NCBI RefSeq assembly: GCF_009914755.1
Contig: NC_060929.1
Source: the human T2T-CHM13v2.0 reference genome, Homo sapiens
DNA: 64,000 nucleotides
Direction: 5' to 3' (one strand)
A program made the translations under genes and the position numbers. Shown piece after piece: positions 5,881-22,300 of the stretch (its first letter is position 1; every line of letters starts with the position of its first letter). The notes beneath the pieces were generated by a model. The model searched no databases, had not been told where the DNA came from, and worked only from the letters and a program-made list of their open reading frames with translations.

Positions 5881-6259
5881 TTTTGGAACATTTAGAGAAA
5901 AATAAAAAGGAGAGTCAATATATTTCTTTTTTGTGGGTTTCTTTTTAAAAAGTGCAACTTACTTTTGATCTGGAATAATCATATTGCATTAAAGTATTTT
6001 CTCTTCAAGTCTCAATTAACTACACCCAGTCAATTATAATCATTGAAATATTTAGATGCTGAGTTTTAATAATACAATTCATGGGGTCATTTATGACAAT
6101 TTATCATATTCACTTAGCAATGACACAATTTCACGGGTGAAATCATGATACCAGGATTGGACAAAATAAATAAATAAAAAGATCTGGCCATATTTTCACT
6201 GCTTTGTGTTTCCTCCTTTGAAATTGGTCCCCAGCAATAAAGTATTAAGGGCCGATAGA

Positions 6260-6480
6260 CACTGGCAAGAATGCTCAAACTCACTAACATTAAAATAAAT
6301 GTAATTAAACTTTGATTTAAAAAATTGATGATTCATATTAGTAAAAAATTGAAAAAGTTCTTAATGTTGGATATGTAAATGGGAATAATATGTTTGGAGG
6401 GAAATTTAGCAATAATTTTCAAAACTAAAAATGTGTAAACCTTGGACATAACCTTCCTATTTCTAGGAAAATTTTCTACT
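6260..6480 (+). mobile_element. Old L1 (L1ME-like) fragment
   Basis: GAATGCTCAAACTCACTAAC and GTTTGGAGGGAAATTTAGCAATA resemble degenerate L1 ORF2 3' sequence. Confidence 0.45.
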
Positions 6481-6689
6481 TGTCAACCCCCTGTATATTG
6501 GAGCTATGCATAGCATCAACTTTCTTGATTATTGTATAAAGTAATTAATTGCATCTAACAGTTAATAATAGCAATTAATGGTTGTATAAGCAGCTAATTT
6601 GCATCTAGCCATCTTAAATTTGTAATAACCTTAAAAAGCAACCATTTGATTTCATTTAATCTACCTTACTTCATGTTTTTTCTTTTTTT

Positions 6690-7020
6690 ACAGAAAAAAT
6701 ATATTTATTTGGAAATCAGGTATTGCAACTGGAATATATGTATCATAGTAAACTGTGTGCATATTCAGGGAAATAAGGATTTTAAAGAAAAAAATTAGGA
6801 GGATTACATAATTGTTTTGAAATGATTATATTTAGCTACAAATAAGAATAAGTGTGATGCCAGTCTGAGGTTGGAGAGAAAGTTACTAGGAAGATGTTCT
6901 CACAGAAGTATATTTGTGAAATGCAGTGGCCTTTGAGCAAGGTTGTGATTTTTGTAGTCTTTTGTGATAGCATTGGTTGTTGGGCAGGGTTAACACTAGC
7001 GACCCAATTTTGATTTTGAC
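6690..7020 (-). mobile_element. MER67-like ERV1 LTR (U3-R only, ending ~14 nt after AATAAA)
   Basis: Reverse complement starts GTCAAAATCAAAATTGGGTCGCTAGTGTTAA and contains CTATCACAAAAGAC..CACAACCTTGCTCAAAGGCC..CAAAACAATTATGTAATCCTCC as in recalled MER67. TTTATT at 6704-6709, with the poly-T at 6676-6689. Confidence 0.7.
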
Positions 7021-7074
7021 CTGTCTTCTAGCTATAATAAAATATACAATACACTGTCGTTAACTATAGTTACC

Positions 7075-8485
7075 TTTTTCCTCTTTTGACCGAGGTTTTT
7101 CTCTGAATGCATGTCAGATTAATCATATTGGACTTAGGTGTTGATGTCCCACCGTGCTAGGATGGAGTTTTGTCAGTTGTTGGTCTTGTTCCACAGTGAG
7201 GGAAGAGAATGGTGGCTAGGAGTCATTGTCAAAACCCTTTTAGCCATATTTGAGCAAGAAGAGAGGTTCGCCAGGGCGTGACCTCAAGCTAAGTCTACCT
7301 GGAGTCCATTATTAAGCTCAATTTTGTCTGTTCTTAGCATCAGCCCAAAGTGTTAGGCTAACATTATTTTATTAGGAGTTGCACTTTTGAAAACATTCAG
7401 CAAGTAATATATACAAAGTTTATAAAGGGAAAATGCAGAATAAGTTAATAGTAATATGACATTTCCAGCTTGCATAATGATTTTGAACCCGGATCCTAAG
7501 CTTCAAAACAGCCAGTTGAATAAATCAAACGACCCTAGGGAATTAGATGATACCTATTGTAATCATGTGGCCTGTTTTCTTTTGTATATATTCCCAGAGG
7601 AATATCTCCAGTTACAGTCTGTAGTATTAGCAATTGCACAGACATATTCTCATTTAAACAATGGATATTAAAAGATTCCTTAGGTTAGGTTCTGTCAAAT
7701 TATTAGAAGATACTCATAGTGAAATTTCTATTACACTATTATCCTGCCAAATAAAAATGGTAGGCATTAAGAGGGGTTCAACCGGGAGGCGGGGCTTGCA
7801 GTGAGCCGAGATCGTGCCACTGGACTCCAGCCTGGGCAACAGAGGGAGATTCCGTCAAAAAAAAAAAAAAAAAAAAGAGGGGTTCAAATTTCCTTATGCT
7901 ATGAATTTTTGTTCTGACATCTTAGAAAAAGCTGTTAACAGAGTGAAACCATCAGCTACCTCAGTTGGCTTGGTAAACTATTTGTGTGGCCCACATATCA
8001 GATACGAGACTTGTTTCTTAAAACTTGTTTCAGCTTACAAGGTTTCAGGAATAGGACAGTTTTTGTTTTTAGTTAGAGAATTGTAGCCAAATAATGCAGG
8101 AAGTTAGTAGAATTCAGAATCTACTGTAGTCTACAGGTAGATAATAACTTCAAGAGAATGCACAGAGCTACAGTCTAATAACAGATATATTACAGTTTTC
8201 TTTAAAAATATATTTTTTTCTCTCCACTTTGACCACATAGAAATCTCAGATTTAAAAATTTATTGAGGCTAGAAAGCAAACCTAGGCAGACTTTAGATTT
8301 TACTTACAGTCTTAAGATTCCTGAGCCTGCCAGAAAGTGACAATATTTCTTTAAAATAAACACAGGCTAGGAACTCTTGGAACCATGCATTTAAGGCACA
8401 TTCTCAACTATGATATTTCAGTGAAGGCCTTGGTAATATAACCAAAATTTCCAATTGTATCCTGCTATAAAGAGAATGCAGATTT
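7075..8485 (-). mobile_element. ERV1 (MER4-group) internal 3' region
   Basis: Lies directly upstream of the LTR on the minus strand with a polypurine tract (reverse complement AAAAGAGGAAAAAGG near 7073-7087). Composition resembles non-autonomous MER4-group internal sequence. Confidence 0.55.
7782..7876 (+). mobile_element. 5'-truncated AluY
   Basis: Right-arm end with the AluY-type GCTTGCAGTGAGCCGAGATC, pure A tail, and perfect TSD AAGAGGGGTTCAA (7769-7781 / 7875-7887). Confidence 0.92.
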
Positions 8486-8643
8486 TTTCAAAAAATTATT
8501 GATACATAATATTTGTGTATATTTTGTGGGTACATGTGATAATTTTTACATGCATATAATGTGTAATGAGTAAGCCAGGGTAATTAGGATATCCATTACC
8601 TCCATTTATCATTTCTGTGTGTTAGGAACTCTTCAAGACCTGC

Positions 8644-10930
8644 TGGTATGGTTTGGTGGTGTCCTCACCCAAATATCATCTTGAATTCCCATGTGTTGTG
8701 GGAGGAACCCAGTGGGAGGTATTTGAATCATGAGGGCAGGTCTTTCCGTGCTGTTCCCATGGTAATGGATAAGTCCCATGAGACCTGATAGTTTTATAAG
8801 AAAGAGTTTCCTTTTTCTCTGTACCAGCTCTCTCTTTACCTGCCAGCATCCCTGTAAGACGTGACTTACTCCTCCTTGCCTTCCCGCATGGTTGTGAGGC
8901 CTCTCCAGCATGTGGAACTGTAAGCTGTCTATTAAACCTCCTTATTTTGTAAATTCCCTAGTCTCAGCTATGCCATTATCAGCAGCATGAAAATGAAATA
9001 ATACAGTAAATTGGTACCAGTAGGGTGGGGCACTGCTGAAAAGATACCTGAAAATGTGGAAGCGACTTTGAAACTGAGTAACAGGCAGAGAGGTTGGAAC
9101 AGTTTGTGGGCTCAGTAGGAGACAGGAAAGTGTGAGAAAGTTTGGAACTCCTTAGAGACTTGTTGAATGGCTTTGACCAAAATGTTGATAATGATATGGA
9201 TGATTAAATCCAGGCTGAGGTGGTCTCAGATAGAGATGAGTAACTTGTTGGGAACTGGAGCAAAGATGACTCTTGTTATGTTTCAGTGAAGAGACGAGCA
9301 GCATTTTGCCCCTGCCCTAAAGATGTATGGAACTTTGAACTTGAGAAAGATGATTTAGTATATCTGGTGGAAAAAATTTCTAAGTAGCAAAGCATTCAAG
9401 AAGTTACTTGGGTGCTATTAAAGGCATTGTTTTAAAAGGGAAACAGAGCATAAAATTTTGAAAATTTGCAGCACAATGCAATAGAAAAGAAAATTCCATT
9501 TTCTGGGGAGAAATTCAAGCCAGCTGAGGAAATTTGCATAAGTAACAAGCAACTGAATGTTAATCACCAAGACAATGGGGAAAATGTCTCCAGGGCATGT
9601 TAGAGGCCTTTGTGGTAGCCCCTCTCATCACTGGCCCAGAGGTTTAGGAAGAGAACATGGTTTCATGGGCCAGGCCCAGAGTCCCTCTGCTGTGTGAAGT
9701 CTAGGGACTTGATGCCCTGCGTCCCAGCCACTCCAGCCTTGACTAAAAAGGGGTCAAGGTACAGCTTGGGCTGTGACGTCAGAGGGTGGAAGTCCCAAGC
9801 CTTGGCAGCTTCCACGTGGTGTTGAGCCTGTGGGTGCACAGATGTCAAGAATTGAGGTTTGGGAACCTCTGCCTAGATTTCAGAAGATGTATGGAAATGC
9901 CTGGATGCTTAAGCAGATGTTTGCTGCATGGGCGGGACCCTCATGGAGAACCTCTGCTAGGGCAGTGCCTAAGGGAAATGTAGGGTCGGAGCCTCCACAC
10001 AGAGTCCCTCCTAGGGCACCATCTAGGGGAGCTGTGAGGAGAGGGCCACCATCCTCCAGACTCCAGAATTGTAGATCCACTGACAGCTTGCACAGTGCAC
10101 TGGAAAAGGTGCAGACACTCAACACCATCCCATGAAAGCAGCCAGAAGGGAGGCTATACCCTGCAAAGCCACAGGAATGGAGCTGCCCAAGACCATGGGA
10201 GCCTACCTCTTGCATCAGTGTGACCTGGATGTAAGATATGGAGTCAAAGGAGATCACTTTGGAGCTTTAAAATTTGACTGCCCCACTGTATTTTGGACTT
10301 GCCTGGGGCCTATAGTCCCTTTGTTTTGGCCAATTCTTCCCATTTGGAATGGGTTTATTTACCCGATGCTTATACCCCCATTCTATCTAGAAAGTAACTA
10401 ACTTGATTTTGATAGTACAGGCTCATTGGTGGAAGGCACTTGCCTCATCTCAGATGAAACTTTAGTCTGTGGCATTTTTAATGAATGTTGAAATGAGTTA
10501 AGACTTAGGGCAACTGTTGAGAAAGCATGATTTGTTTTGAAATGTGAGGATATGAGATTTAGGAGGGGCCAGGGGTGGAATATGGTTTGGTTGTGTCCTC
10601 ACTCAAATCTTATCTTGAATTCCCACGTGTTGTGGGAGGTACCCTGTGGGAGGTAATTGAATCATGGGGGCAGGTCTTTCCCATGCTATTCTCATGATAG
10701 TGAATAAGTCTCATGAAACCTGGTGGATTTCGAAGCAGGAGTTTCTCTGCACAAGCTCTCCCTTTGCCTGCTGCTATCCATGTAACATGTGACTTGCTCC
10801 TCTTTGCCTCTGCCATGACTGTGAGACCTCTCCAGCCATGTGGAACTGTAAGTCTGTTAAATCTCTTTCTTTTGTAAATTGCCCAGTTTCAGGTATGTCG
10901 TTAACAGCAGCATGAAAATGAACTAATACA
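8644..10930 (+). mobile_element. Full-length THE1B (MaLR): LTR 8644-9005, internal, LTR ~10579-10930
   Basis: Two THE1B-type LTRs ending TAATACA, internal region starting GTAAATTGGTACCAG, perfect 5-bp TSD CCTGC (8639-8643 / 10931-10935). Confidence 0.95.
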
Positions 10931-12568
10931 CCTGCCTTTTAGCTACATTAAAATATACAATATGATGTTGTTAACTATAGTCTCCATACTTTGCTATCAA
11001 ACATTAAAACTTATTCCTTCTAACTAAATAATTGTACGCAGTAACTAACATTCTCTTTATCCCTCCAACCCACACACATACTCTTCTCAGGCTCAAGTAA
11101 CTATGATTCTACTGTCTACCTCCATGAGACTAACATTTTTAGCTCCAACAAATGAGTAAGAACATGCCATATTTGTCTTTCTGTGCCTAGATAAATTCAC
11201 TAAACTTAAGGACTTTCAGTTCCATCCATGTTGCTACAAATGACATATTTTTATTCCTTTTCAGGAATGAGTAGTATCCCATTCTGTATATATACAAAAT
11301 TTTATTTATACATTCATTGGTTGTTGGACATGTAGGTTGATTCCATATCTTAGATATTGTGAATTATGCTGCAGTAAATATTGGGGTGCAGGCATCCCTT
11401 TGATATACCAAATTCATTTTCTTTAGATAAATATACACCAGTGAAATTGGCAAATCATATGGTAGTTTTTAGTTTTTTGAGAAAACTTCATATTGTTTTC
11501 CATAATGGTTGTACTAATTTACATTCTCAACAACAGTGTATGAAAGTTTACTTTTTTTTCCACTTTCTCACCAGCATCTGTTTAGTTTTTCTGGATAATA
11601 GCCATTCTAACAGGGATAAGATGGTAACACATTAGAGTTTGGGTTTGCATTTCCTTAATGCTTCATGATGTTGAGCATTTTTTAAATAAACCTGATGTCC
11701 ATTTACATGTCTTCTTTTGAGAAATGCTTATTCAGATCCTTTGGCCACCTTTTAATGGGTTATTATTATTATTACTATTTTTGCTGTTTGGTTGTGTGAG
11801 TTCTTTGTATAGCCTAGATGCTAGTACTTTGTTAGATGAATAGTTTACAAGGTTGTCTCTTCACTCTGTTGGTTGTTTTTTTTTACTATGAAGAAGATTT
11901 TTAGTTTAGAAGAGTCCCATTTGTCTATTGTTGGTGTTGTTGCCTGCAATTTTGAAGTCTTAACCATAAAATTTTTGCAAAAAACAATGTCTGGAGTGCA
12001 TCCTATATTTCTTCTGAAATATAGTATTTTTTATGCTTCAAGTTTTATGTTCAAGTCGTTTCATTTTTAGTTTACTTTTCTAAATGGAGAGAGACAGGGG
12101 TTTACTGCATTCTTCTGCATACAAATATTCAATTTTCCTAGCCCCATTTATTAAAGAGGATGCCCTTTCCCCAGTGTATGTTCTTGGAATCTTTGTCAAA
12201 AATCAGTTGACTATTAATACATGAATTTGTTTCTGGGTTCTCTATTCTGTTCCATTGGTCGATATATCTGTTTTTATACCAATGCCATGCTGTTTTGGTT
12301 ACTATAGATTTGTAACATGTTTTTAAGTCAGATAATGTGATGCCTCTAGCTTTGTTCTTTTTGTTCAGAATTACTTTGGCTAATAGGCTTTTTAAGAATT
12401 CCATACAAATTTTAGAATTTTTCTTCTATTTGTGTGGAAAAAATGTCATGGGTATTTTGATAGGGATTGCATTGAATCTGTAGATTGTGTGGGTAGTATG
12501 ATAATTTTGACAATATTAATTCTTATGGCCCATGAGCATGGTATGTCTTTTGATTTGTTTGTGCCCTC

Positions 12569-14885
12569 TCATATGGTTTGGCCGTGTCCCCACCCAAATC
12601 TCAATTTGAATTGTATCTCTCAGAATCCCCATGTGTTGTGGGAGGGATCCAGGGGAAGGTAATTGAAGCATGGGGGTCGGTCTTTCCCATGCTATTCTCA
12701 TGATAATGAATAAGTCTCATGAGAACTGATGGGTTTATCAGGGATTTCCACTTTTGCTTCTTTCTCATTTCTCTCTTGCTGCCACCACGTAAGAAGGGCA
12801 TTTCACCTTTCACCATGATTCTGATGCCTCCCCAGTTATGTGGAACTGTAAGACTAATTAAACCTCTTTTTCTTCCCAGTCTCGGGTATGTCTTTATCAG
12901 CAGTGTGAAAATGGACTAATATAGTAAATTGGTACCAGTATAGTGGGGCATTGCTGAAAAGATACCTGAAAATGTGGAAGTGACTTTGGAACTGGGTAAT
13001 AGGTAGAGGTTGGAACAGTTTTGAGGGCTCAGAAGATAGGAAAATGTGGGAAAGTTTGGAACTCCTTAGAGACTAGTTGAATGGCTTTGACCAAAATGCT
13101 GATAGTGATATGGACAATAAGGTCCAGGCTGACGTGGTGTCAGATGGAGATGAGGAACTTCTTGAGAACTGGAATAAAGGTGACTCTTGATAAGTTTTAG
13201 CAAAGAGACTGGTGGCATTTTGCCCCTGCCCTAGAGATATGTAGAACTTTGAACTTGAGAAGGATGATTTAGTGTATCTGATGGAAGAATTTTCTAAGCA
13301 GCAAAGCATTCAAGATGTGACTTTTGTACTGTTAAAGGCATTCAGATTTATAAGGGAAGCAGAACACAAAAGTTTGGAAAATTTGCAGCTTGACTATGCC
13401 ATAGAAAAGAAAAACCCATTTTCTGTGGGTGAAATTCAAGCTGGCTGCAAAAATTTGCATAAGTAGCAAGGAGCCTAATGTTATCCCCAAGACCATGGGG
13501 AAAATGTCTCCAGGCCATGTCAGAGACTTTCATGGCAGCCCTTCCCATCACGTGAAAGCAACCAGGAGGGAGGCTTTACCCTGTAAAGCCACAGGACCAG
13601 AGGCCCAGGAGGAAAAAATGGTTTCTTGGGACAGGCTCATGGTCTGCATGCTGTATGCAACCTAGGGACTTGGGTGCCCTGTGTCCCAGCTGCTCCAGCC
13701 TTGGCTGAAAGGGGCCAACATGCAGCTTGGGCTGTGGCTTAAGAGGGTGAAAACCCCAAGCCTTGGCAGCTTCCACATGGTGTTGAGCCTGTGGGTGTAC
13801 AGAAGTCAAGAAACGGGGTATGGAAACCTCCACCTAGATTTCAGAAGATGTATGGAAATGCCTGGATACACAGGCAAAAATTTGCTGCAGGGATGGGGCC
13901 CTCACGAAGATCCTTTGCTACAGCAGTGCAGAAGGGAAATGTGGAGTCAGAGCCCCCAAACAGAGTCCCTATTTGGGACTAGTGGAGCTGTGAGAAGAGG
14001 GCCACAATTGTCCAGACCCCAGAATGGTAGATCCACTGACAGCTTGCACTGTGCACCTGGAAAAGCCTCAGACACTCAACATCAACCCATGAAAGCAACC
14101 AGGAGGGAGGCTTTACCCTGTAAAGCCACAGGGGTGAAGCTGCCTAAGACAATGGGAACTCACCTCTTGCATCAGCATGACCTGGATGTGAGGCCTGGAG
14201 TCACAGGATATCATTTTGGAGCTTTAAAATTTGACTGCCCAACTGGATTTTGGACTTGCATGTGCCCTGTAACACCTTTGTTTTGGCCAATTTCTCCCAT
14301 TTGTTATGGCTGTATTTACCTTATACCTGCACCCCCATTTTATTTAGGAAGTAACTAGCTTTTGATTTTTCAGGCTCATAGGTGGAAGGGACTTGCCTTG
14401 TCTCAGATGGGACTTTGGACTGTGGACTTTCAGGTTAATGTTGAAATGAGTTAAGACTTTGGGTGACTGTTGGGAAAGCATGATTGGTTTCAAAATATGA
14501 GGACATGAGATTTGGAGTGGCCAGGGGTGGAATACTATGATTTGGCTGTGTCCCCACCCAAAAATCAACTTGAATTTTATCTCTCAGAATTCCCACATAT
14601 TGTGGGAGGGACCCAGAGGAAGGTAATTGAATCATGGAGGCTGGTCTTTCCCATGTTATTCATGATAGTGAATAAGTCTCACAAGATCTGATGGGCTTAT
14701 CAGGGGTTTCTGCTTTTGCTTCTTCCTCATTTCTCTCTTGCTGCCACCATGTAAGAAGTGCATTTCATCTCCCTTCATGATACTGAGGCCTCCCCAACCA
14801 TGTGGAACTGTAAATCTAATTAAACCTTTTTTTCTTCCCAGTCTCAGGTATGTCTTTATCATCAGCATGAAAATGGACTAATACA
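12569..14885 (+). mobile_element. Full-length THE1A (MaLR): LTR 12569-12923, internal, LTR 14533-14885
   Basis: THE1A-type LTR text such as TTGTATCTCTCAGAAT and GGGTTTATCAGGG..CTTTTGCTTC. TSD CCCTC / CCATC. Confidence 0.95.
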
Positions 14886-15568
14886 CCATCTTCCATTTCT
14901 TTCGTCAGTGTTTTATGGTTTTCATTATCTAAATCTTTTATCTGCTTCATTAAATTTTTTATTAGGTATATCTTTTTCTGTTGCTTTTGTAAATAGGATT
15001 GCCTTCTTGATTTCAGCTAGCTTTTTCAGCTAGTTTGATATTGGTGTATATAGAAAGGCTACTGATTTTTGTATGTTGACTTTGTATCCTGCAACATTAA
15101 AAAATGTGTTTATCTGAACTATGAGGTTTTTTGGTGGAGTCTTCTGGCTTTTCTAAATATAAGATCATATCAGCAGGGAAGAGACACAATTTGACTTCAT
15201 CTTTTCCAAGTTGGATGTCTTTTATTTCTTTCTCTTGCCTGATTGCTCTGGCTATGACTTCCAGTGTTACATTGAATAGGATTGGTGAAAGTGGGCGTCT
15301 GTGTACTGTTTCAGTTCTTAGTGCACAGACTTTCAGCTTTTTCCCATTCAGTATGATGTTAGCTGTTGTTTTGTCATATCTAATCTTTATCATTTTGCAG
15401 TATCTTCATTCTATGCCTAATGTGTTCAGAGTTTTTATCATAAAAATGGTGTTGAATTTTATCAAATTATTTTCCTACATCTATTAAGACAATTGTTTGT
15501 TACCCTTCATTCTATTGATGTGACACATACTGTTTATTGATTTGCATATACAGAGCCATCCTTGCATC

Positions 15569-16461
15569 TATTGACAACAATTTAAAAAGTCAAACTCTGT
15601 AAAATATTTTTCAGAGATTTATTCTGAGCCAAATATGAGTAATTAAGGTCTAAGGCACAATATCTAGAGGCCCTGAAAGCATGTGCCCAAGATTGTTGAG
15701 TTACAGCTTGATTTTATACATTTTAGCAGAAGTTACAGACAGACATCAATCAATACATGTAAGGTATACATCAGGAAGAGGGGACAACTTGAAGTGAGGG
15801 TTTCCAGGTCATAGGTGGATTCAAAGATTTCTTGGTAATTGGTTAAAAGAGCTAAGCTCTGTCCAGAGAATTGAAGTCAGCAGAAATAAATGTTTGTAGT
15901 TAAGATAAGGGGGGTTGTGGAAGCCATGGATCTTGTCATGCAGTTGAAGTTTCCAGGTGGCTGGCTTCAGAGAGAATAGATAGTAAATATCTCTCATTAG
16001 ATGCTAAAATGTGCCAGACTCATAGGTAATCTCTTCTGGATCAGAGAAAGACCTGGAAATGGAATAGGATTCTCTACAGAATGTAGATTTTATTTTGACA
16101 AGAGATAGCTTTGCAGGGCCTTTTCAAAATATGTCAAAGAAATACATTTAGGGGTAAAATACTGTGATTTCTTTCAGAGCCTGCTATCTGTTATGTGATG
16201 CTATACTACAGTCAGGTTGGAATTTTGTATCTTATTGCTGCAAAGAGTCTGTTTTGTCTCTTTTAAGATCTCTGCTTTAATGTTAATGCTGATTGGTTGT
16301 GCTTGAGTTCTAAAGGGCGGAGGGTATAGTGAGGCATGTCTGGCCCTCCCTTTCCATCATGGCTGGAACTATTTCTTCAGGTTTACTTTGGAACACCTTT
16401 AGATAGGAAGAAGGGTCCATTAAGTCAGTTGTGGGGCTTAAAACTTTATTTTTGATTTACT
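15569..16461 (-). mobile_element. MER4-group solo LTR (MER4D/E-like)
   Basis: AGTCAAACTCTGTAAAATATTT..GAGATTTATTCTGAGCCAAATATGAG at one end, reverse complement GTAAATCAAAAATAAAGTTTTAAGCCCC at the other. 4-bp TSD CATC / TATC. The L1 resumes in register. Confidence 0.85.
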
Positions 16462-18254
16462 TATCTCTGGCATATATTCCACTTGATCATGGTGTATTAT
16501 CTTTCTAATGTACCAGTGTTTTGTTGGGGATTTTTGTGTCTATGTTCATCATGGATATCAGCTTATAGTTTTCATTTTTATTGTGTCTTTGTCTGGTTCT
16601 AGATCAGGGCAAGGCTGGCCTCAAAGAATGAGTTGGGGATATTTTTCCTCCTCTTTAATGAAATACTTTGAGGAGGATTGGTTTAATTCTTCTTTATAAG
16701 CTTGGTATAATTCAGCAGTGAACCCATCTACTCCTGGGCTTTTCTTTTTTGGGTGACTTTTTTATTACTGATTCAATCTTATTACTTGTTTTTAGCATGT
16801 TCAGGCTTTCTATTTCTTCCTGATTCTATATTGGTAGGTTGCTTATTTCCAGGAATTTATCACTTTCTCTATGTTTTACAGTTTGTTAGCATATAATTGT
16901 TCAGAATAGTATTTGTTATGAATAGTCTCTTCTTTTGTATTTCTGTGGTATCATTTGTAATGTCCCGTTTCAGCTTATGATTTTGTTTATTTCAATCTTC
17001 TCCATTCTTTTCTTGGTTAGCCCAGCTAGTGGTTTATTGATTTTGATTATCTTTTCTAAGACCACCTTTTTGTTTAGTTAATACTTTGTTTTATTTTTTA
17101 AATGTTTATTTTGTTTAGTTATTCTCTGAGCTTTATTATTTTCCCTTTCTACTAACTCTGGGTTTGGTTTGCTCTTGCATTTTTAGTTCCTTGAGACACA
17201 GTGTTAGATTTTTCTTCAAATCTATTTTTTGATGTGTTTATTGCTATAAAATTTCTGCTTAGCACTGACTTTGCTGTATCCACAGGTTTTGATTTGTTGT
17301 GTTTTTATTTTCATTTGTTTCAAAATATGTTTTATTTTCTTCTTTATTTCTTCATTAACCCAATGGTCATTTTGGAGCATGTTATTTAATTTCCTTGTAT
17401 TTGTTCAATTTCCAAGGTTCTTCTGGTTATTGATTTCTAATTTTACTCACTTATGGCCTGAGAAGATAATTCATATGATCTCAATATTTTTAAAAATTTT
17501 TGAGGATTTTTTTTGGTATGTGTGTCCTAACATGTGGTCTCTCTTGGAGAATGTTCTATTTGACTATGAGAAAAATCTGTATTCTGCAGCTGTCGGATAA
17601 AATACTCTATAAATGTGTATTAAGTCTATTTGGTCTAAAATGCCATTTAAAGCCAATATTTCTTTGTTGATTTTCTGTGTAAATCATCCATCTAATGCTG
17701 AGAGTAGGGTGTTGAAATCACCACCTATTATTGTAACAGAGGCTATAACTCACTTTAAGTCTAATAATATTTACTTTATATATCTGGATGTTCCAGTGTT
17801 GGGTGCACATATTAGAATTGTTAAACAATCTTGCTGACTTGGTTTATTATTACATTATGATCTTCTTTGCATCTTATTACAGTTTTTGACTTAAAGTCTT
17901 TTTTTATCTGTTACAAGTACAGCTTCTCCAGCTCACTTTTGATTTCATTTGCATGGAATATGTTTTCCATCCCTTTACTTTCAGTCTCTATTTCTAAAAG
18001 ACAAAGCACATTTTATCTTTACAGCAAAGTGTGCTTCTTGTAGATAGCATATAATTGGGATATTTAAAAAAATCTATTCACCCAGTATATATATTTTTAA
18101 GAGGATCATTTAATCTGTTTATACTCAAGCTTATGATTGATATGTTAGGACTTATTTTTATCATTCTGTTAATTGTTTCCTAGTTGTTCTTTATGTATAT
18201 ATTATATAAAGATATATATTATTTACATAACATATATTGTGTATGTATATATAT

Positions 18255-18576
18255 ATTTTTCTTTTCTTTTCTTTTCTTTTTTCTTATGTTTTTGAGACAG
18301 GGTCTTACTCTGTTGCTCAGGTTGGAGTGCAGTGGCATGATCACAGCTTATTGTAGCCTTGACCTCCCGGGCTCAAGCAGTTCTCCTGTCTCAGTTTCCT
18401 GAGCAGCTGAGACAACAGGCATATGCCACGATGCCTGGACAATTTTTAACTTTTTTTGTAGAGATTGGATCTCCTTATTTTGCTCAGGCTGGTCTTGAAC
18501 TCCTGGGCTCTAACAGTCCTCCTGCCTTGGCCTCCTAAAGTGCTGGGATTATAGGCATGAGCTACCGTGCCCAGCC
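18255..18576 (-). mobile_element. AluJ
   Basis: Antisense Alu with J-type GATCACAGCTTATTGTAGCCTTGACCTCCCGGGCTCAAG and a degenerate T-rich tail. Confidence 0.92.
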
Positions 18577-18735
18577 TTTCCTTAGTTTTTTATGATTTTA
18601 TTTCTGTGATTATTCTTTGGTAGCTTTCTGTAGTGGTAACATTGGAGTTCTTTCTCTTTCATGTTTTTGTACTTGCTTTACCAGTATGTTTTTATGACGG
18701 TAGATATTGTCCTATTGCTTTCAGGTTTACAACTC

Positions 18736-19312
18736 TGTGATGGTTAATATTAGCTATCAACTTGATTGGATTGAAGAACGCCTAGATAGCTGATAAGGTA
18801 TTGTTTCTGGTTGTGTCTGTGAGGGTGTTACCAGAGGAGATTAAAATTTGAGTAAGTGGACTGCGAGAGGAAGACCCACTCTCAGTGTGTGTGGGCACCA
18901 TTCAATCTGCTGCCAGCGTGGCTAGAACAAAGCAGGCAGAAGGTGGGATAAGCTAGTTTGTTGATTCTTCTCATTTCCGTCTTTCTCCCGTGCCAGAAGT
19001 TTCCTTCCATTCCTCTTGTGCTTGGACATCAAACTCCAGGTTCTTCGGCCTTTGGACTCTTGAGCTTACACCAGTGGTTGCCAGAGGCTCTCAGGCCGTT
19101 GGCTACAGATTGAGGGCTGCACTGTCAGCTGCCCTACTTTTGAGGCTTTTGGACTCAGACTGAGACACTACAGCCTTTTCTCTTCCTCAGCTTGCAGACA
19201 GCTTATCATGAGACTTCACCTTGTGATTGTGTGAGTCAATTCTCCTTAATAAACTCCCTTTCATATATACATATATCCTATCAGTCCTGTCTCTCTGGAG
19301 AACTCTAATACA
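18736..19312 (+). mobile_element. MLT2A2-like solo LTR (ERVL)
   Basis: TGTGATGGTTAATATT...CTGGAGAACTCTAATACA, with 5-bp TSD AACTC / GACTC. Confidence 0.9.
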
Positions 19313-22300
19313 GACTCCCTTAAGCATTTCTTGTAGAGCTTTTTTCTTGCCATTCTTACAATTCTCTCTTTGACTTTTGCCGGTTTGACTACCATGTGCC
19401 ATGAAAATTACTTTTTCAGTTTTATTTCCTTGGGGCTTTCTGAACTTCCTGTATTTGCATGTTTAAATCTCTTGTTGGGCTTGGGAGTTTATCAGGCATT
19501 ATTTTCTTAAATATGTCTTCTATGTCATTGTGCTTCTCTTCACATTTTGGAATGTTTAAAATTCATATAATTCATGTATTTAGTCATTTTATGGCATCTC
19601 ATATGTCACATAAGCTTTCTTACTTATTTTTTTATTATTTTCTCTTTTCTTGGTATGAATTGGCAATTTCAAAATGTCTTCAAGTCCTGAAATTCTTCTG
19701 CTTGATATAATCTATGGTTAAGCTCTTGATTGTATTTTATTTTATTCCTTGAATTCTTTAGTTTCAGGACTTGTATTTGGTTCTTTTTAAAGATAGCAAT
19801 CTTTTTTGAATGTCTCATTCATTCCTTGAATTGCTTTTCTAATTTCTTTGTATTTTTAATATGTTTTATTTTGTATCTCACTGAACTACTTTAATATCAT
19901 TATTTTGAATTCTTTTTGTGGTATTTCATATTTTTTTCCCCATTTGGCTCTGTTGCTGGAGAATTATCACGTTCCTTTCAAGGTGTCATATTTTCTTGCT
20001 TTTTTATGTTTCTTATGTACTTATGCTTATGCACATCTAGTAACAGTCATTTCTTCCAATTTTTGGATTGACTTTCATAGGGGATGATTTTTTCCTGAAA
20101 GTGTATCTATGGTGTTCGTTGGTTAGAACAGTTTTGATTCTGAGTGAGTGCAGTAGCATAGTCTCTGTATAATTTCTTTGGCTATAAACAATATCAGTAA
20201 TATCTGTGATTTCCTTAGTGGCTTAGGCTTGAGCTGTTAGTGAGGCTATGATGAAGCTTTGCTGAGGATGCAGACTCCAGGCGTGCCAGCCCTCAGGCCC
20301 CAGTGGTGGAAACAGTAGCCTGAGCTTGCTTGTCCTTGGGCCCTTGGGCAGTGTGCACTGTCATCAGTGTTAATGGGTCCAGGTGGGCTGATTCTTGATC
20401 CTCCAGGTGGCTTGCTTGGGTATCAGCAGTGGAAGAAATGCACTGAGTAGGTGGGCATGCATGTCTTCAGGCCCCTGGGCAGCATGTGTGGCATGGGCAA
20501 TGGCACTAGCAGTGATGGGAAAAAACCCTGGGCTTGCAGGCAGCACAGGATGATATTTTCTGTGGCTGCAACAAGCTGAGTGGTCCAGTCTTCAGGACTC
20601 CAGGCGGTACAGTCAAGTGGGTGCTAGAAGTAGTGGTGGTGGCAGGCTGGGTGAGTTCATGCTCAGGTCTCCAGGAGGAGTGCACAAATGCCAGTGATGG
20701 TATATGGGGTGTGATAATCCCTAGGCCCCTGGGGCACTGGAGGAGCAGTGCCACACCAGGTGGACCTATCCTCAGGCTCTTCAGTGGTGCTTTTGGTCAG
20801 GAAAGGGTAATACTCAGCCCTCCAGGCAGTGTGCTTTTGTGGTGGCAGCTATGATAGCCACTGAGAGGGTTGGGGGAAGCCTGATCTCAGGTATATGCAA
20901 GTGCACAGTTGTCCTGCTGCTGTTGAGGGCTGAATTGCTGTCAGTGATAGCAGCTCCAGGCAGGCAGCTTTGGGGCTTTGTGAAGTGCATGTTTTTGTTC
21001 CCTTTGTCCTGGAGGCAGCCTCCTCTCTGTGCTTCACTTCCCATTTCTGGGTATATAGTACACCGTGTGGGTTAGAGTGCTGGGGACCCTGCTGCACTCC
21101 CGGGGGTCCAGTTGGTATTGCATAGCAGCAGCCCTCTGAGTGGACATGGGGAGATGTCAGTGTTTCCAGGGATGTAGAGATGCAGGAGCTGTTGGGCCCT
21201 CAGGCAGAATGCAGGCTGGGAGGCTGGGCACTCAAATGGCGCCATGCTCTAACTGCTTGGGTCTCAGGGGTGTGTGGGATCCAGCATGAGATCTCTCTCC
21301 CTGGAACAATGCCATTGCTCCCAATACTAGTCTCAGGGCTCACAGAAATGAGGGGCTCTTCTGTGGCTAGGGTTCCAGGAATCCATAGTGGGACTGTAGA
21401 TTGCTGAATATCTCTCACTTGTCTTTTTCCTCTGCACTGGGAAGCTTCTCCAGGCTCCCAGATGATCCCAACTGAACCAGCTACCTCACTGTCCACTTCT
21501 TCCATTTCTCAGGTTTTTTTTTTTATTTCTCTACTGAATTCCAATGTTATCTCTTAGATGCTCCATTTGTTGTTTGATTACATACTCACTATTTCTGTTC
21601 TTTGTGGAGGAGGTGATGCCTTTAGTCAGATATCTTCTACTTTACTTCATCTTTAAATTGCAAAAGTACTATGTATTTATTATAATATTTCAAACAGTAT
21701 AGAGATGTACACATTTCCTACTCTAACCCCAGGAAAGCAACATTCTAATTTTGATAACTGAGCACACGATATAAATTAGATTGGAGCCCTTGTGTGAATT
21801 GGAAATGATTTCCTGGGGTCCTCAGTTCATTCTCAGCAGCTACTAGACATGTTGAGAAAAATCTGTTCATTCTAATAATTGTGTCAGACTTGGATCATGG
21901 TTTGCTAATTGAGATAACCTTAAACAACATGAGAATAATAATCAGTCAGTCAGACCAACCCCTCTAAATTACCAACATGGATACATAGCCACTAATGTTA
22001 CTCAAGCACCAATTGTCATAGGTAGTAAATCTCTTATGATTTTCTGCCAAATGCATATCTTTCTCAGATATTTGTTAACAAAATATTGGAAAAGTATTAT
22101 CAGATATTCTCCACCCCAAGTAATTAAGAAACACCAAAAATATTGGGGAAAATTTGATGAAATGTTTTGAAATTAGATTGAAGAAAGAATTGAAATGAGA
22201 TAGAATAGCTAGAAAACCTTTAAGACTTTAACCATCCACTTTAACAGTCTCCCTGTTAATATGCAGCAGCATAGGCCACTTGTATGAGAACAAAAGCCAT

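What the first reader, a model, noticed from the sequence alone, without database searches (positions are those of the whole stretch)
6660..21654. One ~15 kb TSD-bounded unit: ancient L1 3' transduction carrying an ERV tail and ending at the LTR poly(A) signal
Seen in sequence: TCTACCTTACTTCATGTTT (6660-6678) recurs as TCTACTTTACTTCATCTTT (21636-21654, 17/19 identical) exactly at the L1 5' end. The right copy is followed by AA, giving CTTT/AA. The left copy runs into a poly-T (6676-6689), and on the minus strand AATAAA (6704-6709) sits ~14 nt before that tail. Between this tail and the L1's own 3' end (~8486) lie ~1.7 kb of co-oriented ERV1 internal DNA, a polypurine tract and a MER67-like LTR lacking its U5 end. 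Established: L1 endonuclease nicks TTTT/AA, and weak L1 poly(A) signals allow 3' transduction. Inference: a source L1 sitting inside an ERV read through to the LTR poly(A) site and the chimeric RNA was retrotransposed here. Repeat annotation would split this into unrelated pieces. The nested AluJ suggests a very old event.
Basis: partly seen in the sequence, partly recalled or inferred. Interest (0 to 1): 0.8.

Follow-up and report, generated by a model that had tools for sequence, protein, structure and literature searches.

The report
Ancient L1 carrying an LTR-element tail
A very old, nearly full-length L1 jumping gene was copied into this spot together with 1.8 kb of a neighbouring retrovirus-like element, which is a textbook way for L1 to move foreign DNA and is ordinary in kind.

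Summary
A 19-nt direct repeat (6660-6678 and 21636-21654, 17 of 19 identical) brackets a 15-kb unit.

**What the unit contains**
- A minus-strand L1 (about 8489-21635) that is collinear with a 6.7-kb genomic copy and lacks only about 11 nt at its 5' end. It is broken up by younger insertions.
- At its complete 3' end, a co-oriented 1.8-kb 3' portion of an LTR retroelement: internal DNA, a purine tract and an LTR.

**Why it looks like one RNA-mediated insertion**
- The LTR stops 14 nt after its AATAAA and runs into a 14-nt tail. In 12 of 13 other genomic copies the LTR continues about 35 nt further.
- Neither part has a duplication of its own.
- Both flanks are single-copy DNA, so the LTR element does not continue on either side.
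- The empty site reads CTTT/AAAT, which fits an L1 endonuclease nick.

**Mechanism.** One L1-mediated insertion of a chimeric RNA is well supported. 3' transduction from a source L1 sitting inside an LTR element is the most likely route. RT template switching cannot be excluded.

**What stays open.** No source or sibling locus was found: 0 of 79 scored non-self genome matches cross the junction. The names ERV1 and MER67 could not be tested, and no retroviral protein domain was detected.

The mechanism is known. This is a tidy old example of low novelty.

The parts
6660..6678 (.). Left copy of the 19-nt target-site duplication. Its last three T overlap the tail.
   Evidence: It matches 21636-21654 at 17 of 19 positions and is the only match of 16 or more of 19 in the window.
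6676..6689 (-). Poly(A) tail of the inserted copy. It reads TTTTTTCTTTTTTT on the + strand.
   Evidence: It is absent from all 13 other genomic LTR copies aligned; 12 of them carry about 35 nt of LTR terminus here instead.
6690..7030 (-). 3' LTR of an LTR retroelement, lacking about 35 nt at its 3' (U5) end. AATAAA is at 6704-6709 on the minus strand. The 5' end lies at about 7022-7035.
   Evidence: 40 further matches at 39 genomic places, 72-79% identical, the main ones covering about 6692-6986. One search shows the truncation. One search shows the 5' boundary against the two LTRs of L040.
7073..7087 (-). Purine-rich tract (polypurine tract-like) next to the LTR 5' end.
   Evidence: It aligns with the purine run beside the 3' LTR of copy L040.
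7088..8482 (-). 3' internal region of the same LTR retroelement, cut off at its upstream side by the L1 junction.
   Evidence: genomic copies are 71-79% identical and collinear with the LTR in L023/L040; other copies continue past the junction.
7769..7887 (+). Later insertion. A 5'-truncated Alu fragment with an A tail (7782-7876), flanked by a perfect 13-nt duplication AAGAGGGGTTCAA (7769-7781 and 7875-7887).
   Evidence: sequence; it matches Alu copies in the window and in other loci.
8483..8488 (-). Junction A-run (six A on the sense strand). It is shared between the L1 tail and an A5 run that the LTR element itself carries at this point.
   Evidence: four of six other copies have an uninterrupted five-A run (read as AAAAATC, in L004 as AAAAATT) here. 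L1 copies end in a T-run followed by an A-run.
8489..21635 (-). One near full-length L1 with a complete 3' end, a 5' end about 11 nt short, and decayed ORFs. It is interrupted by nested insertions.
   Evidence: collinear with the 6.7-kb copy L039 in seven blocks; weak RVT_1 match at 15100-15405 and Transposase_22 match at 19425-19562, both on the minus strand. define the 5' end.
8644..10930 (+). Nested younger LTR retrotransposon with two LTRs (about 8644-9005 and 10575-10930) and a 5-bp duplication CCTGC (8639-8643 and 10931-10935).
   Evidence: LTRs are 85.7% identical; other L1 copies join 8636 directly to 10936.
12570..14888 (.). Nested block of 2.3 kb that is absent from the reference L1 copy. 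It contains Alu-sized stretches masked in NCBI's file. Not characterised further.
   Evidence: break in collinearity. Masked stretches are those listed in the finding's annotation.
15569..16461 (.). Nested block of 0.9 kb that is absent from the reference L1 copy. Not characterised.
18149..18614 (.). Nested Alu-type insertion or insertions.
   Evidence: matches to Alu copies. It is masked in the annotation.
21636..21654 (.). Right copy of the 19-nt target-site duplication. It is followed by AAAT, so the empty site reads CTTT/AAAT.

Best explanation
The stretch 6660-21654 is the product of one L1-mediated (target-primed reverse transcription) insertion into single-copy DNA.

**Proposed sequence of events**
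1. A source L1 had earlier inserted, in the sense orientation, at an A-rich endonuclease-like site inside an LTR retroelement elsewhere in the genome.
2. Transcription from the L1 promoter ran past the L1's own weak poly(A) signal. It continued through about 1.7 kb of the host element: the 3' internal region, the purine tract, and U3-R of the 3' LTR.
3. The transcript was cleaved and polyadenylated at the LTR's own poly(A) site.
4. The L1 machinery nicked the target here at CTTT/AAAT, primed on the tail, and copied the chimeric RNA almost to its 5' end.
5. A 19-nt target-site duplication resulted.
6. Later insertions swelled the unit from about 8.4 kb to 15 kb. These were one LTR element, Alus and two uncharacterised blocks.

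**Shown:** the anatomy, the duplication, the LTR truncation at the poly(A) site and the single-copy flanks.

**Inferred:** the source locus and the read-through itself.
For: 1. **Duplication.** It is 17 of 19 identical and placed exactly at the tail and at the L1 5' end. It is far beyond chance: 5 of 2,906,909 random pairs reach that level, and it is unique in the window.
2. **Target site.** The empty site reads CTTT/AAAT on the primed strand. This fits the L1 endonuclease preference TTTT/AA, which is established knowledge recalled here.
3. **LTR end.** The LTR ends 14 nt after AATAAA in a 14-nt tail. Twelve of 13 other copies continue about 35 nt to a shared terminus, and 7 of 13 keep an intact AATAAA at that position.
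4. **Collinearity of the LTR-element part.** LTR plus internal DNA are collinear in another copy that has two LTRs. Other copies continue past the junction. The piece here is therefore a 3' fragment.
5. **L1.** It is one collinear near full-length element with a complete 3' end. A 5' end only about 11 nt short fits a transcript started at the L1 promoter.
6. **No separate duplications.** For the L1 alone the best match is 5 nt. For the LTR piece alone it is a 7-nt T-run.
7. **Flanks.** Both are single copy in the genome and unlike the LTR. The LTR element was therefore not resident here.
8. **Junction site.** The junction in the LTR element falls at a run of five A, uninterrupted in four of six other copies and preceded there by T. 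This is the kind of site at which a source L1 would have integrated.
9. **Order of the parts.** L1 on the 5' side, foreign DNA on the 3' side and a second tail is the defining layout of 3' transduction. The abstract of PMC13009371, seen in the listing, states that about 25% of L1 insertions carry such a sequence.
Against: - **No source or sibling locus.** Zero of 39 non-self matches to 8300-8640 and 0 of 40 to 7890-8640 cross the junction. The LTR-element matches are 71-79% identical with no outlier. Only 40 of about 2,400-2,500 first-look candidates were scored in each search, so this is a lower-bound search.
- **Very short A-run at the junction.** It is six A, of which five can be assigned to the LTR element. 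Almost nothing remains of the source L1's own tail. Other old copies of this L1 family also keep only four or five A.
- **No outgroup test.** No empty orthologous site could be examined.
- **Read-through not separated from template switching.** The structure alone does not distinguish the two.
Confidence: 0.68

Rival explanations
1. This is one L1-mediated insertion, but the chimera arose during reverse transcription or at the RNA level. The reverse transcriptase started on the poly(A) tail of an LTR-element transcript and copied 1.7 kb. At the A5 run it switched to the tail of an L1 RNA and copied that to its 5' end. Alternatively, the two RNAs were ligated or spliced before copying.
For: - The model predicts the same duplication, tail and co-orientation as transduction.
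- The junction sits in an A-run that offers microhomology with an L1 tail.
- No source locus with a resident L1 was found.
- L1 chimeras formed by template switching or RNA ligation are documented (passages of 10.1101/2025.02.02.635956).
Against: - In the chimeras described in the passages read, the L1 is the 3' partner on which priming starts, in line with cis preference, and the other RNA is the 5' partner. Here the order is reversed, and the 5' partner is a 6.7-kb L1.
- A switch onto a long tail would be expected to leave a longer A tract than about one extra A. Erosion over time weakens this point.
- 3' transduction is much the commoner route to this layout. This is established knowledge, and the abstract of PMC13009371 was seen.
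Confidence: 0.2
2. Two or more independent events occurred. An LTR-element fragment, or a processed copy of its RNA, and an L1 landed side by side. On this view the 19-nt repeat is a coincidence or belongs to only one of them.
For: - No outgroup empty site was seen.
- The region is AT-rich, which raises chance similarity. Nine of 5,000 shuffles reached the segment score when the T-run was included.
- The left 19-mer resembles the LTR terminus of other copies weakly, at 8 of 12 positions by eye in the alignment.
Against: - The 17 of 19 match is unique in the window and sits at both predicted boundaries.
- Neither part has a duplication of its own.
- Two events would need the L1 to have landed exactly at the 5' end of a processed copy without leaving its own duplication.
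- The flanks are single copy, and the right flank shows no similarity to the LTR: score 24 against a shuffle mean of 26.4.
- The stretch between the 19-mer and the clear LTR homology is a T-run, not the purine/pyrimidine hairpin-like terminus seen in 12 of 13 copies.
Confidence: 0.07
3. The transcript started upstream of the L1, for example at the 5' LTR of the host element at the source locus. The cDNA was simply 5'-truncated near the L1 5' end. On this view it is a processed copy of an LTR-element RNA that happened to contain an L1.
For: It gives the same 3' anatomy. L1-mobilised processed copies of ERV RNA are known for HERV-W (title and abstract of PMC5537654).
Against: - The copy begins within about 11 nt of the 5' terminus shared by 9-10 of 13 L1 copies. 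That would be a coincidence for random 5' truncation, but it is expected for a transcript started at the L1 promoter.
Confidence: 0.05

Closest known systems
L1 3' transduction (read-through of the weak L1 poly(A) signal, with the downstream flank carried to the new site)
   Same: - The L1 has a complete 3' end.
- It is followed by co-oriented non-L1 DNA.
- That DNA ends at a downstream AATAAA plus tail.
- A single endonuclease-type duplication surrounds the whole unit.
   Different: - The event is very old and no source locus can be found.
- The carried DNA is itself a retroelement 3' end, and the poly(A) site used is that of its LTR.
- Repeat annotation would show this as unrelated pieces.
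L1-mobilised processed copies of endogenous retrovirus RNA (HERV-W processed pseudogenes; PMC5537654, title and abstract seen)
   Same: - The 3' LTR ends at the R/U5 border in a poly(A) tail.
- A long L1-type duplication is present instead of the 4-6 bp left by a retroviral integrase.
   Different: - Here the retroelement part does not begin at R of a 5' LTR.
- It begins inside the internal region, fused to the 3' end of an L1.
- It was therefore carried as L1 flank, not mobilised as its own RNA.
L1 chimeric insertions by template switching or RNA ligation (U6/L1 and others; 10.1101/2025.02.02.635956, passages read)
   Same: Two RNAs are joined in the same orientation and share one duplication and one tail.
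   Different: - In those chimeras the L1 is the 3' partner and the other RNA the 5' partner.
- Here the L1 is the 5' partner and is near full length.

Membership tests
L1 3' transduction event | An L1 with a complete 3' end followed directly by co-oriented non-L1 sequence | tested here: met
   the window L1 ends like 6 of 9 other copies, with a T-run followed by an A-run. LTR-element homology starts within the A-run; the L1 is on the minus strand, as is the LTR element.
L1 3' transduction event | The carried sequence ends in a poly(A) tail 10-30 nt after a poly(A) signal | tested here: met
   AATAAA (minus strand, 6704-6709) lies 14 nt before the 14-nt tail; other copies have LTR sequence where the tail is.
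L1 3' transduction event | One target-site duplication around the whole composite, and none around the L1 alone | tested here: met
   17 of 19 at the outer boundaries. The best match for the L1 alone is 5 nt, and for the LTR piece alone 7 nt.
L1 3' transduction event | An L1 endonuclease-type nick site at the end of the duplication | tested here: met
   the empty site reads CTTT/AAAT on the primed strand. The consensus TTTT/AA is recalled, not from a call.
L1 3' transduction event | A source locus with an L1 immediately upstream of the carried sequence | tested here: not met
   0 of 79 scored non-self matches cross the junction. Only 40 of about 2,400-2,500 candidates were scored per search, and the source may have been lost or eroded.
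L1 3' transduction event | An empty orthologous site with one copy of the duplication in an outgroup | not testable with these tools
   No other mammalian genome is held. Both flanks are single copy in this genome, so there is no paralogous empty site either.
Template-switch or ligation L1 chimera | L1 as the 3' partner on which priming starts, with the other RNA as the 5' partner | tested here: not met
   the L1 is the 5' partner. The family description comes from passages of 10.1101/2025.02.02.635956.
LTR retroelement (endogenous retrovirus in the wide sense) | Other copies have two LTRs around the internal region, a purine tract next to the 3' LTR, and LTR ends of the TG...CA type | tested here: met
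   L040 has LTRs at 244-683 and 5960-6369; purine tract and a TG at the LTR 5' end; 12 of 13 copies end, in sense, in CA.
   there was no retroviral Pfam family in 91 open stretches of 6600-22300 or in 46 of 62 open stretches from copies L040 and L041. Sixteen stretches that overlap Alus were left out. The copies are heavily decayed, so this is weak evidence.
No repeat-consensus library is on hand.
HERV-W-type processed ERV copy | The copy begins at R of the 5' LTR and ends at R of the 3' LTR plus tail | tested here: not met
   The 3' end fits. The 5' end lies inside the internal region at the L1 junction.

The most novel reading that the evidence does not exclude
The chimera was not made by read-through. 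It was made by the L1 reverse transcriptase starting on a polyadenylated LTR-element RNA and then switching, at an A5 microhomology, onto a full-length L1 RNA. This would be a chimera in reversed order (L1 as the 5' partner). It would show that L1 enzymes primed in trans on a foreign RNA can pick up and complete a whole L1.
Probability: 0.2. Interest if true: 0.4.

Novelty: new member of a known kind. Interest (0 to 1): 0.22.

Why it matters
This is a clean fossil of L1 moving foreign DNA. The foreign DNA is the 3' part of an LTR element, including most of an LTR with its regulatory U3 region, and it was placed in single-copy DNA.

It shows that standard repeat annotation, which would list an L1, an LTR and internal pieces separately, can hide a single event. 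It also shows that an LTR fragment need not have arrived by retroviral integration.

The mechanism has been known for decades, and nothing here changes it. No gene lies nearby.

Tried and rejected
1. **Whole-region translation.** Stop-free stretches of 40 aa or more were used instead. They gave only two weak L1 matches and no retroviral one.
2. **Retroviral domains in other copies.** A Pfam scan of 46 of 62 open stretches from L040 and L041 found no retroviral family. Sixteen stretches overlapping Alus were dropped.
3. **L005 (C4) as source or sibling.** It has an L1 3' end about 1.1 kb from the same LTR-element family in the same orientation. It was rejected because its LTR-element sequence continues about 340 nt past the window's junction.
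4. **The right flank as a second LTR.** By eye there is a TATTTATT similarity. It was rejected because the local alignment score is 24, against a shuffle mean of 26.4.
5. **The left 19-mer as a diverged LTR U5 end.** It matches at 8 of 12 positions by eye. It was rejected because this is within chance once offsets are allowed (my estimate, about 0.06), and because the stretch between it and the LTR homology is a T-run.
6. **Five L1 copies whose matches ran 10-20 nt past the L1 end.** They were fetched and aligned. None shares the LTR-element part.
7. **Paralogous empty site.** The flanks were searched in the genome. Both are single copy, so no such site exists.

Full report
**Observation**

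The window is human chr5 (T2T-CHM13), and the whole assembly could be searched.
- The left copy runs into TTTTTTCTTTTTTT (6676-6689).
- tttatt, which is AATAAA on the minus strand, is at 6704-6709.
- The right copy is followed by AAAT.

The match is not chance.
- In the 64-kb window, each 19-mer has 16 or more of 19 matches only at itself and at its partner.
- Random 19-mer pairs from the window reach 17 of 19 in 5 of 2,906,909 trials.
- Between the 61-nt segments around the two boundaries, the best ungapped match is exactly this 19-mer. Its score is reached by 14 of 19,694 random segment pairs, some of them Alu pairs, and by 9 of 5,000 shuffles. The shuffle count is inflated by the T-run.

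**The L1**

A 6.7-kb copy of the same family, L039 from C18, is collinear with the minus strand of the window in seven blocks running from 21616 down to 8494. The breaks in collinearity mark nested insertions at 8641-10935, 12570-14888, 15569-16461 and around 18149-18614.

Pfam gives only weak remnants, both on the minus strand:
- RVT_1 at 15100-15405, E = 0.0047.
- The L1 ORF1 RBD-like domain at 19425-19562, E = 0.0007.

At the 5' end, all 39 non-self genome matches to 21200-21720 stop at or before 21636. Aligned copies show that 9-10 of 13 run about 11 nt further before they diverge from each other. The L1 here is therefore near full length and lacks about 11 nt.

At the 3' end, the window L1 ends in a T-run followed by an A-run, as do 6 of 9 other copies. 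None of those copies shares what follows in the window.

**The segment between the tail and the L1**

Positions 6692-6986 match an LTR family: 40 further matches at 39 genomic places, 72-79% identical.

In 12 of 13 aligned copies the LTR runs about 35 nt beyond window position 6692, to a shared terminus that reads ...CA in sense. In the window that stretch is replaced by the T-run and the left 19-mer. Seven of 13 copies keep an intact AATAAA at the same place. The LTR here is therefore cut 14 nt after its poly(A) signal and carries a tail, which is the mark of an RNA 3' end.

Positions 7197-8487 match an internal region, with copies 71-79% identical. That region is contiguous with this LTR in another copy (L023/L040). 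The copy has two LTRs about 5.7 kb apart and a purine tract beside the 3' LTR, as the window has at 7073-7087.

Other copies continue upstream past the point that corresponds to 8487. The window therefore holds only a 3' fragment.

No retroviral Pfam domain was found, either in the 91 open stretches of 6600-22300 or in 46 from two other copies. "LTR retroelement" is therefore shown. "ERV1" and "MER67-like" are not shown, because no repeat library was available.

**The junction**

In sense, the window reads L1 end, T-run, G, six A, and then LTR-element sequence (8499 down to 8480).

Four of the six other LTR-element copies have an uninterrupted run of five A at exactly this point, preceded by T. 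Two things follow.
- Almost all of the A-run can belong to the LTR element.
- The site looks like an L1 endonuclease target, or equally like a microhomology with a poly(A) tail.

**One event or several**
- Neither part has a duplication of its own. The best match is 5 nt for the L1 alone and a 7-nt T-run for the LTR piece alone.
- The left flank (6300-6678) and the right flank (21636-22020) are single copy in the genome. The left flank has itself plus one weak 77-nt match, and the right flank has only itself.
- The right flank has no similarity to the LTR: score 24 against a shuffle mean of 26.4.
- The LTR element was therefore never resident here, and it does not continue beyond the L1.
- The empty site, rebuilt from the flanks, reads CTTT/AAAT on the strand that carries the T-tail. 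This fits the L1 endonuclease preference, which is recalled rather than taken from a call.

Together these results make a single L1-mediated insertion of a chimeric L1 plus LTR-element sequence the only economical reading. I put it at about 0.9.

**Which mechanism made the chimera**

The layout defines 3' transduction: a complete L1 3' end, then foreign DNA, then a second poly(A) signal and tail, all inside one duplication. A 5' end within about 11 nt of the family terminus fits a transcript from the L1 promoter.

The rival is template switching or RNA ligation. In the passages I read from 10.1101/2025.02.02.635956, the known chimeras have the L1 as the 3' partner on which priming starts. Here the order is the reverse.

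A source locus would decide between them, and none was found.
- Zero of 39 non-self matches to 8300-8640 cross the junction.
- Zero of 40 non-self matches to 7890-8640 cross the junction.
- Identities show no outlier.
- These searches scored only 40 of about 2,400-2,500 first-look candidates each, so absence is not proven.

I put transduction at about 0.68, template switch or ligation at about 0.2, and the remaining readings at about 0.1.

**Age**

A complete younger LTR element lies inside the L1 3' UTR, at 8644-10930, with a 5-bp duplication CCTGC. Its two LTRs are 85.7% identical, JC distance 0.158. With a recalled neutral rate of about 2.2e-9 per site per year, that insertion is roughly 35 million years old. 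The host unit is older.

The L1 is 69-73% identical to L039 over its body and about 81-83% over the 3' end. Two mismatches in the 19-nt duplication fit an old event.

**Comparison and novelty**

This is an instance of L1 3' transduction. The abstract of PMC13009371, seen, states that about 25% of insertions carry a transduction.

At its 3' end it resembles L1-mobilised HERV-W processed copies (PMC5537654, title and abstract). It differs in that the retroelement part starts inside the internal region, fused to an L1.

I found no paper on this locus, but I did not search for one specifically. My searches were on mechanisms and on MER67.

The find is a new member of a known kind. It is neat, and useful as an example of what repeat annotation splits apart, but it is not surprising.

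Noticed in passing
window 7769-7887: A 5'-truncated Alu fragment (7782-7876, about 75 nt plus a 20-nt A tail) lies inside the LTR-element piece. It is flanked by a perfect 13-nt duplication AAGAGGGGTTCAA, so it is a much younger L1-mediated insertion.
   Followed up: partly
window 8639-10935: A complete 2.29-kb LTR retrotransposon with TG...CA LTRs and a 5-bp duplication CCTGC sits in the L1 3' UTR. Its LTRs are 85.7% identical. From memory its LTR resembles the MaLR (THE1/MST) type; this was not tested.
   Followed up: partly
window 12570-14888 and 15569-16461: Two further blocks of 2.3 kb and 0.9 kb interrupt the L1 relative to copy L039. Their content beyond the Alu-sized masked stretches was not identified.
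   Followed up: no
L005 (G000:C4:89840270-89843457): A second locus has an L1 3' end of the same family about 1.1 kb from the same LTR-element family, in the same relative orientation, with Alus between them. It is not a sibling, because its LTR-element sequence continues about 340 nt past the window's junction point.
   Followed up: yes
window 8489-8500; loci L005, L006, L042, L043, L045, L046: This L1 family ends in a T-run followed by the A tail. In the window copy the signal now reads AATAAT rather than AATAAA. Whether that change predates the event, which would have favoured read-through, cannot be told.
   Followed up: partly
L040 (G000:C11:22209900-22219800): This copy of the LTR element has both LTRs (244-683 and 5960-6369, 72% identical) and three Alu insertions. 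No retroviral Pfam domain was detected in 26 of its 35 open stretches of 35 aa or more between 600 and 6000 (nine overlapping Alus were left out).
   Followed up: partly
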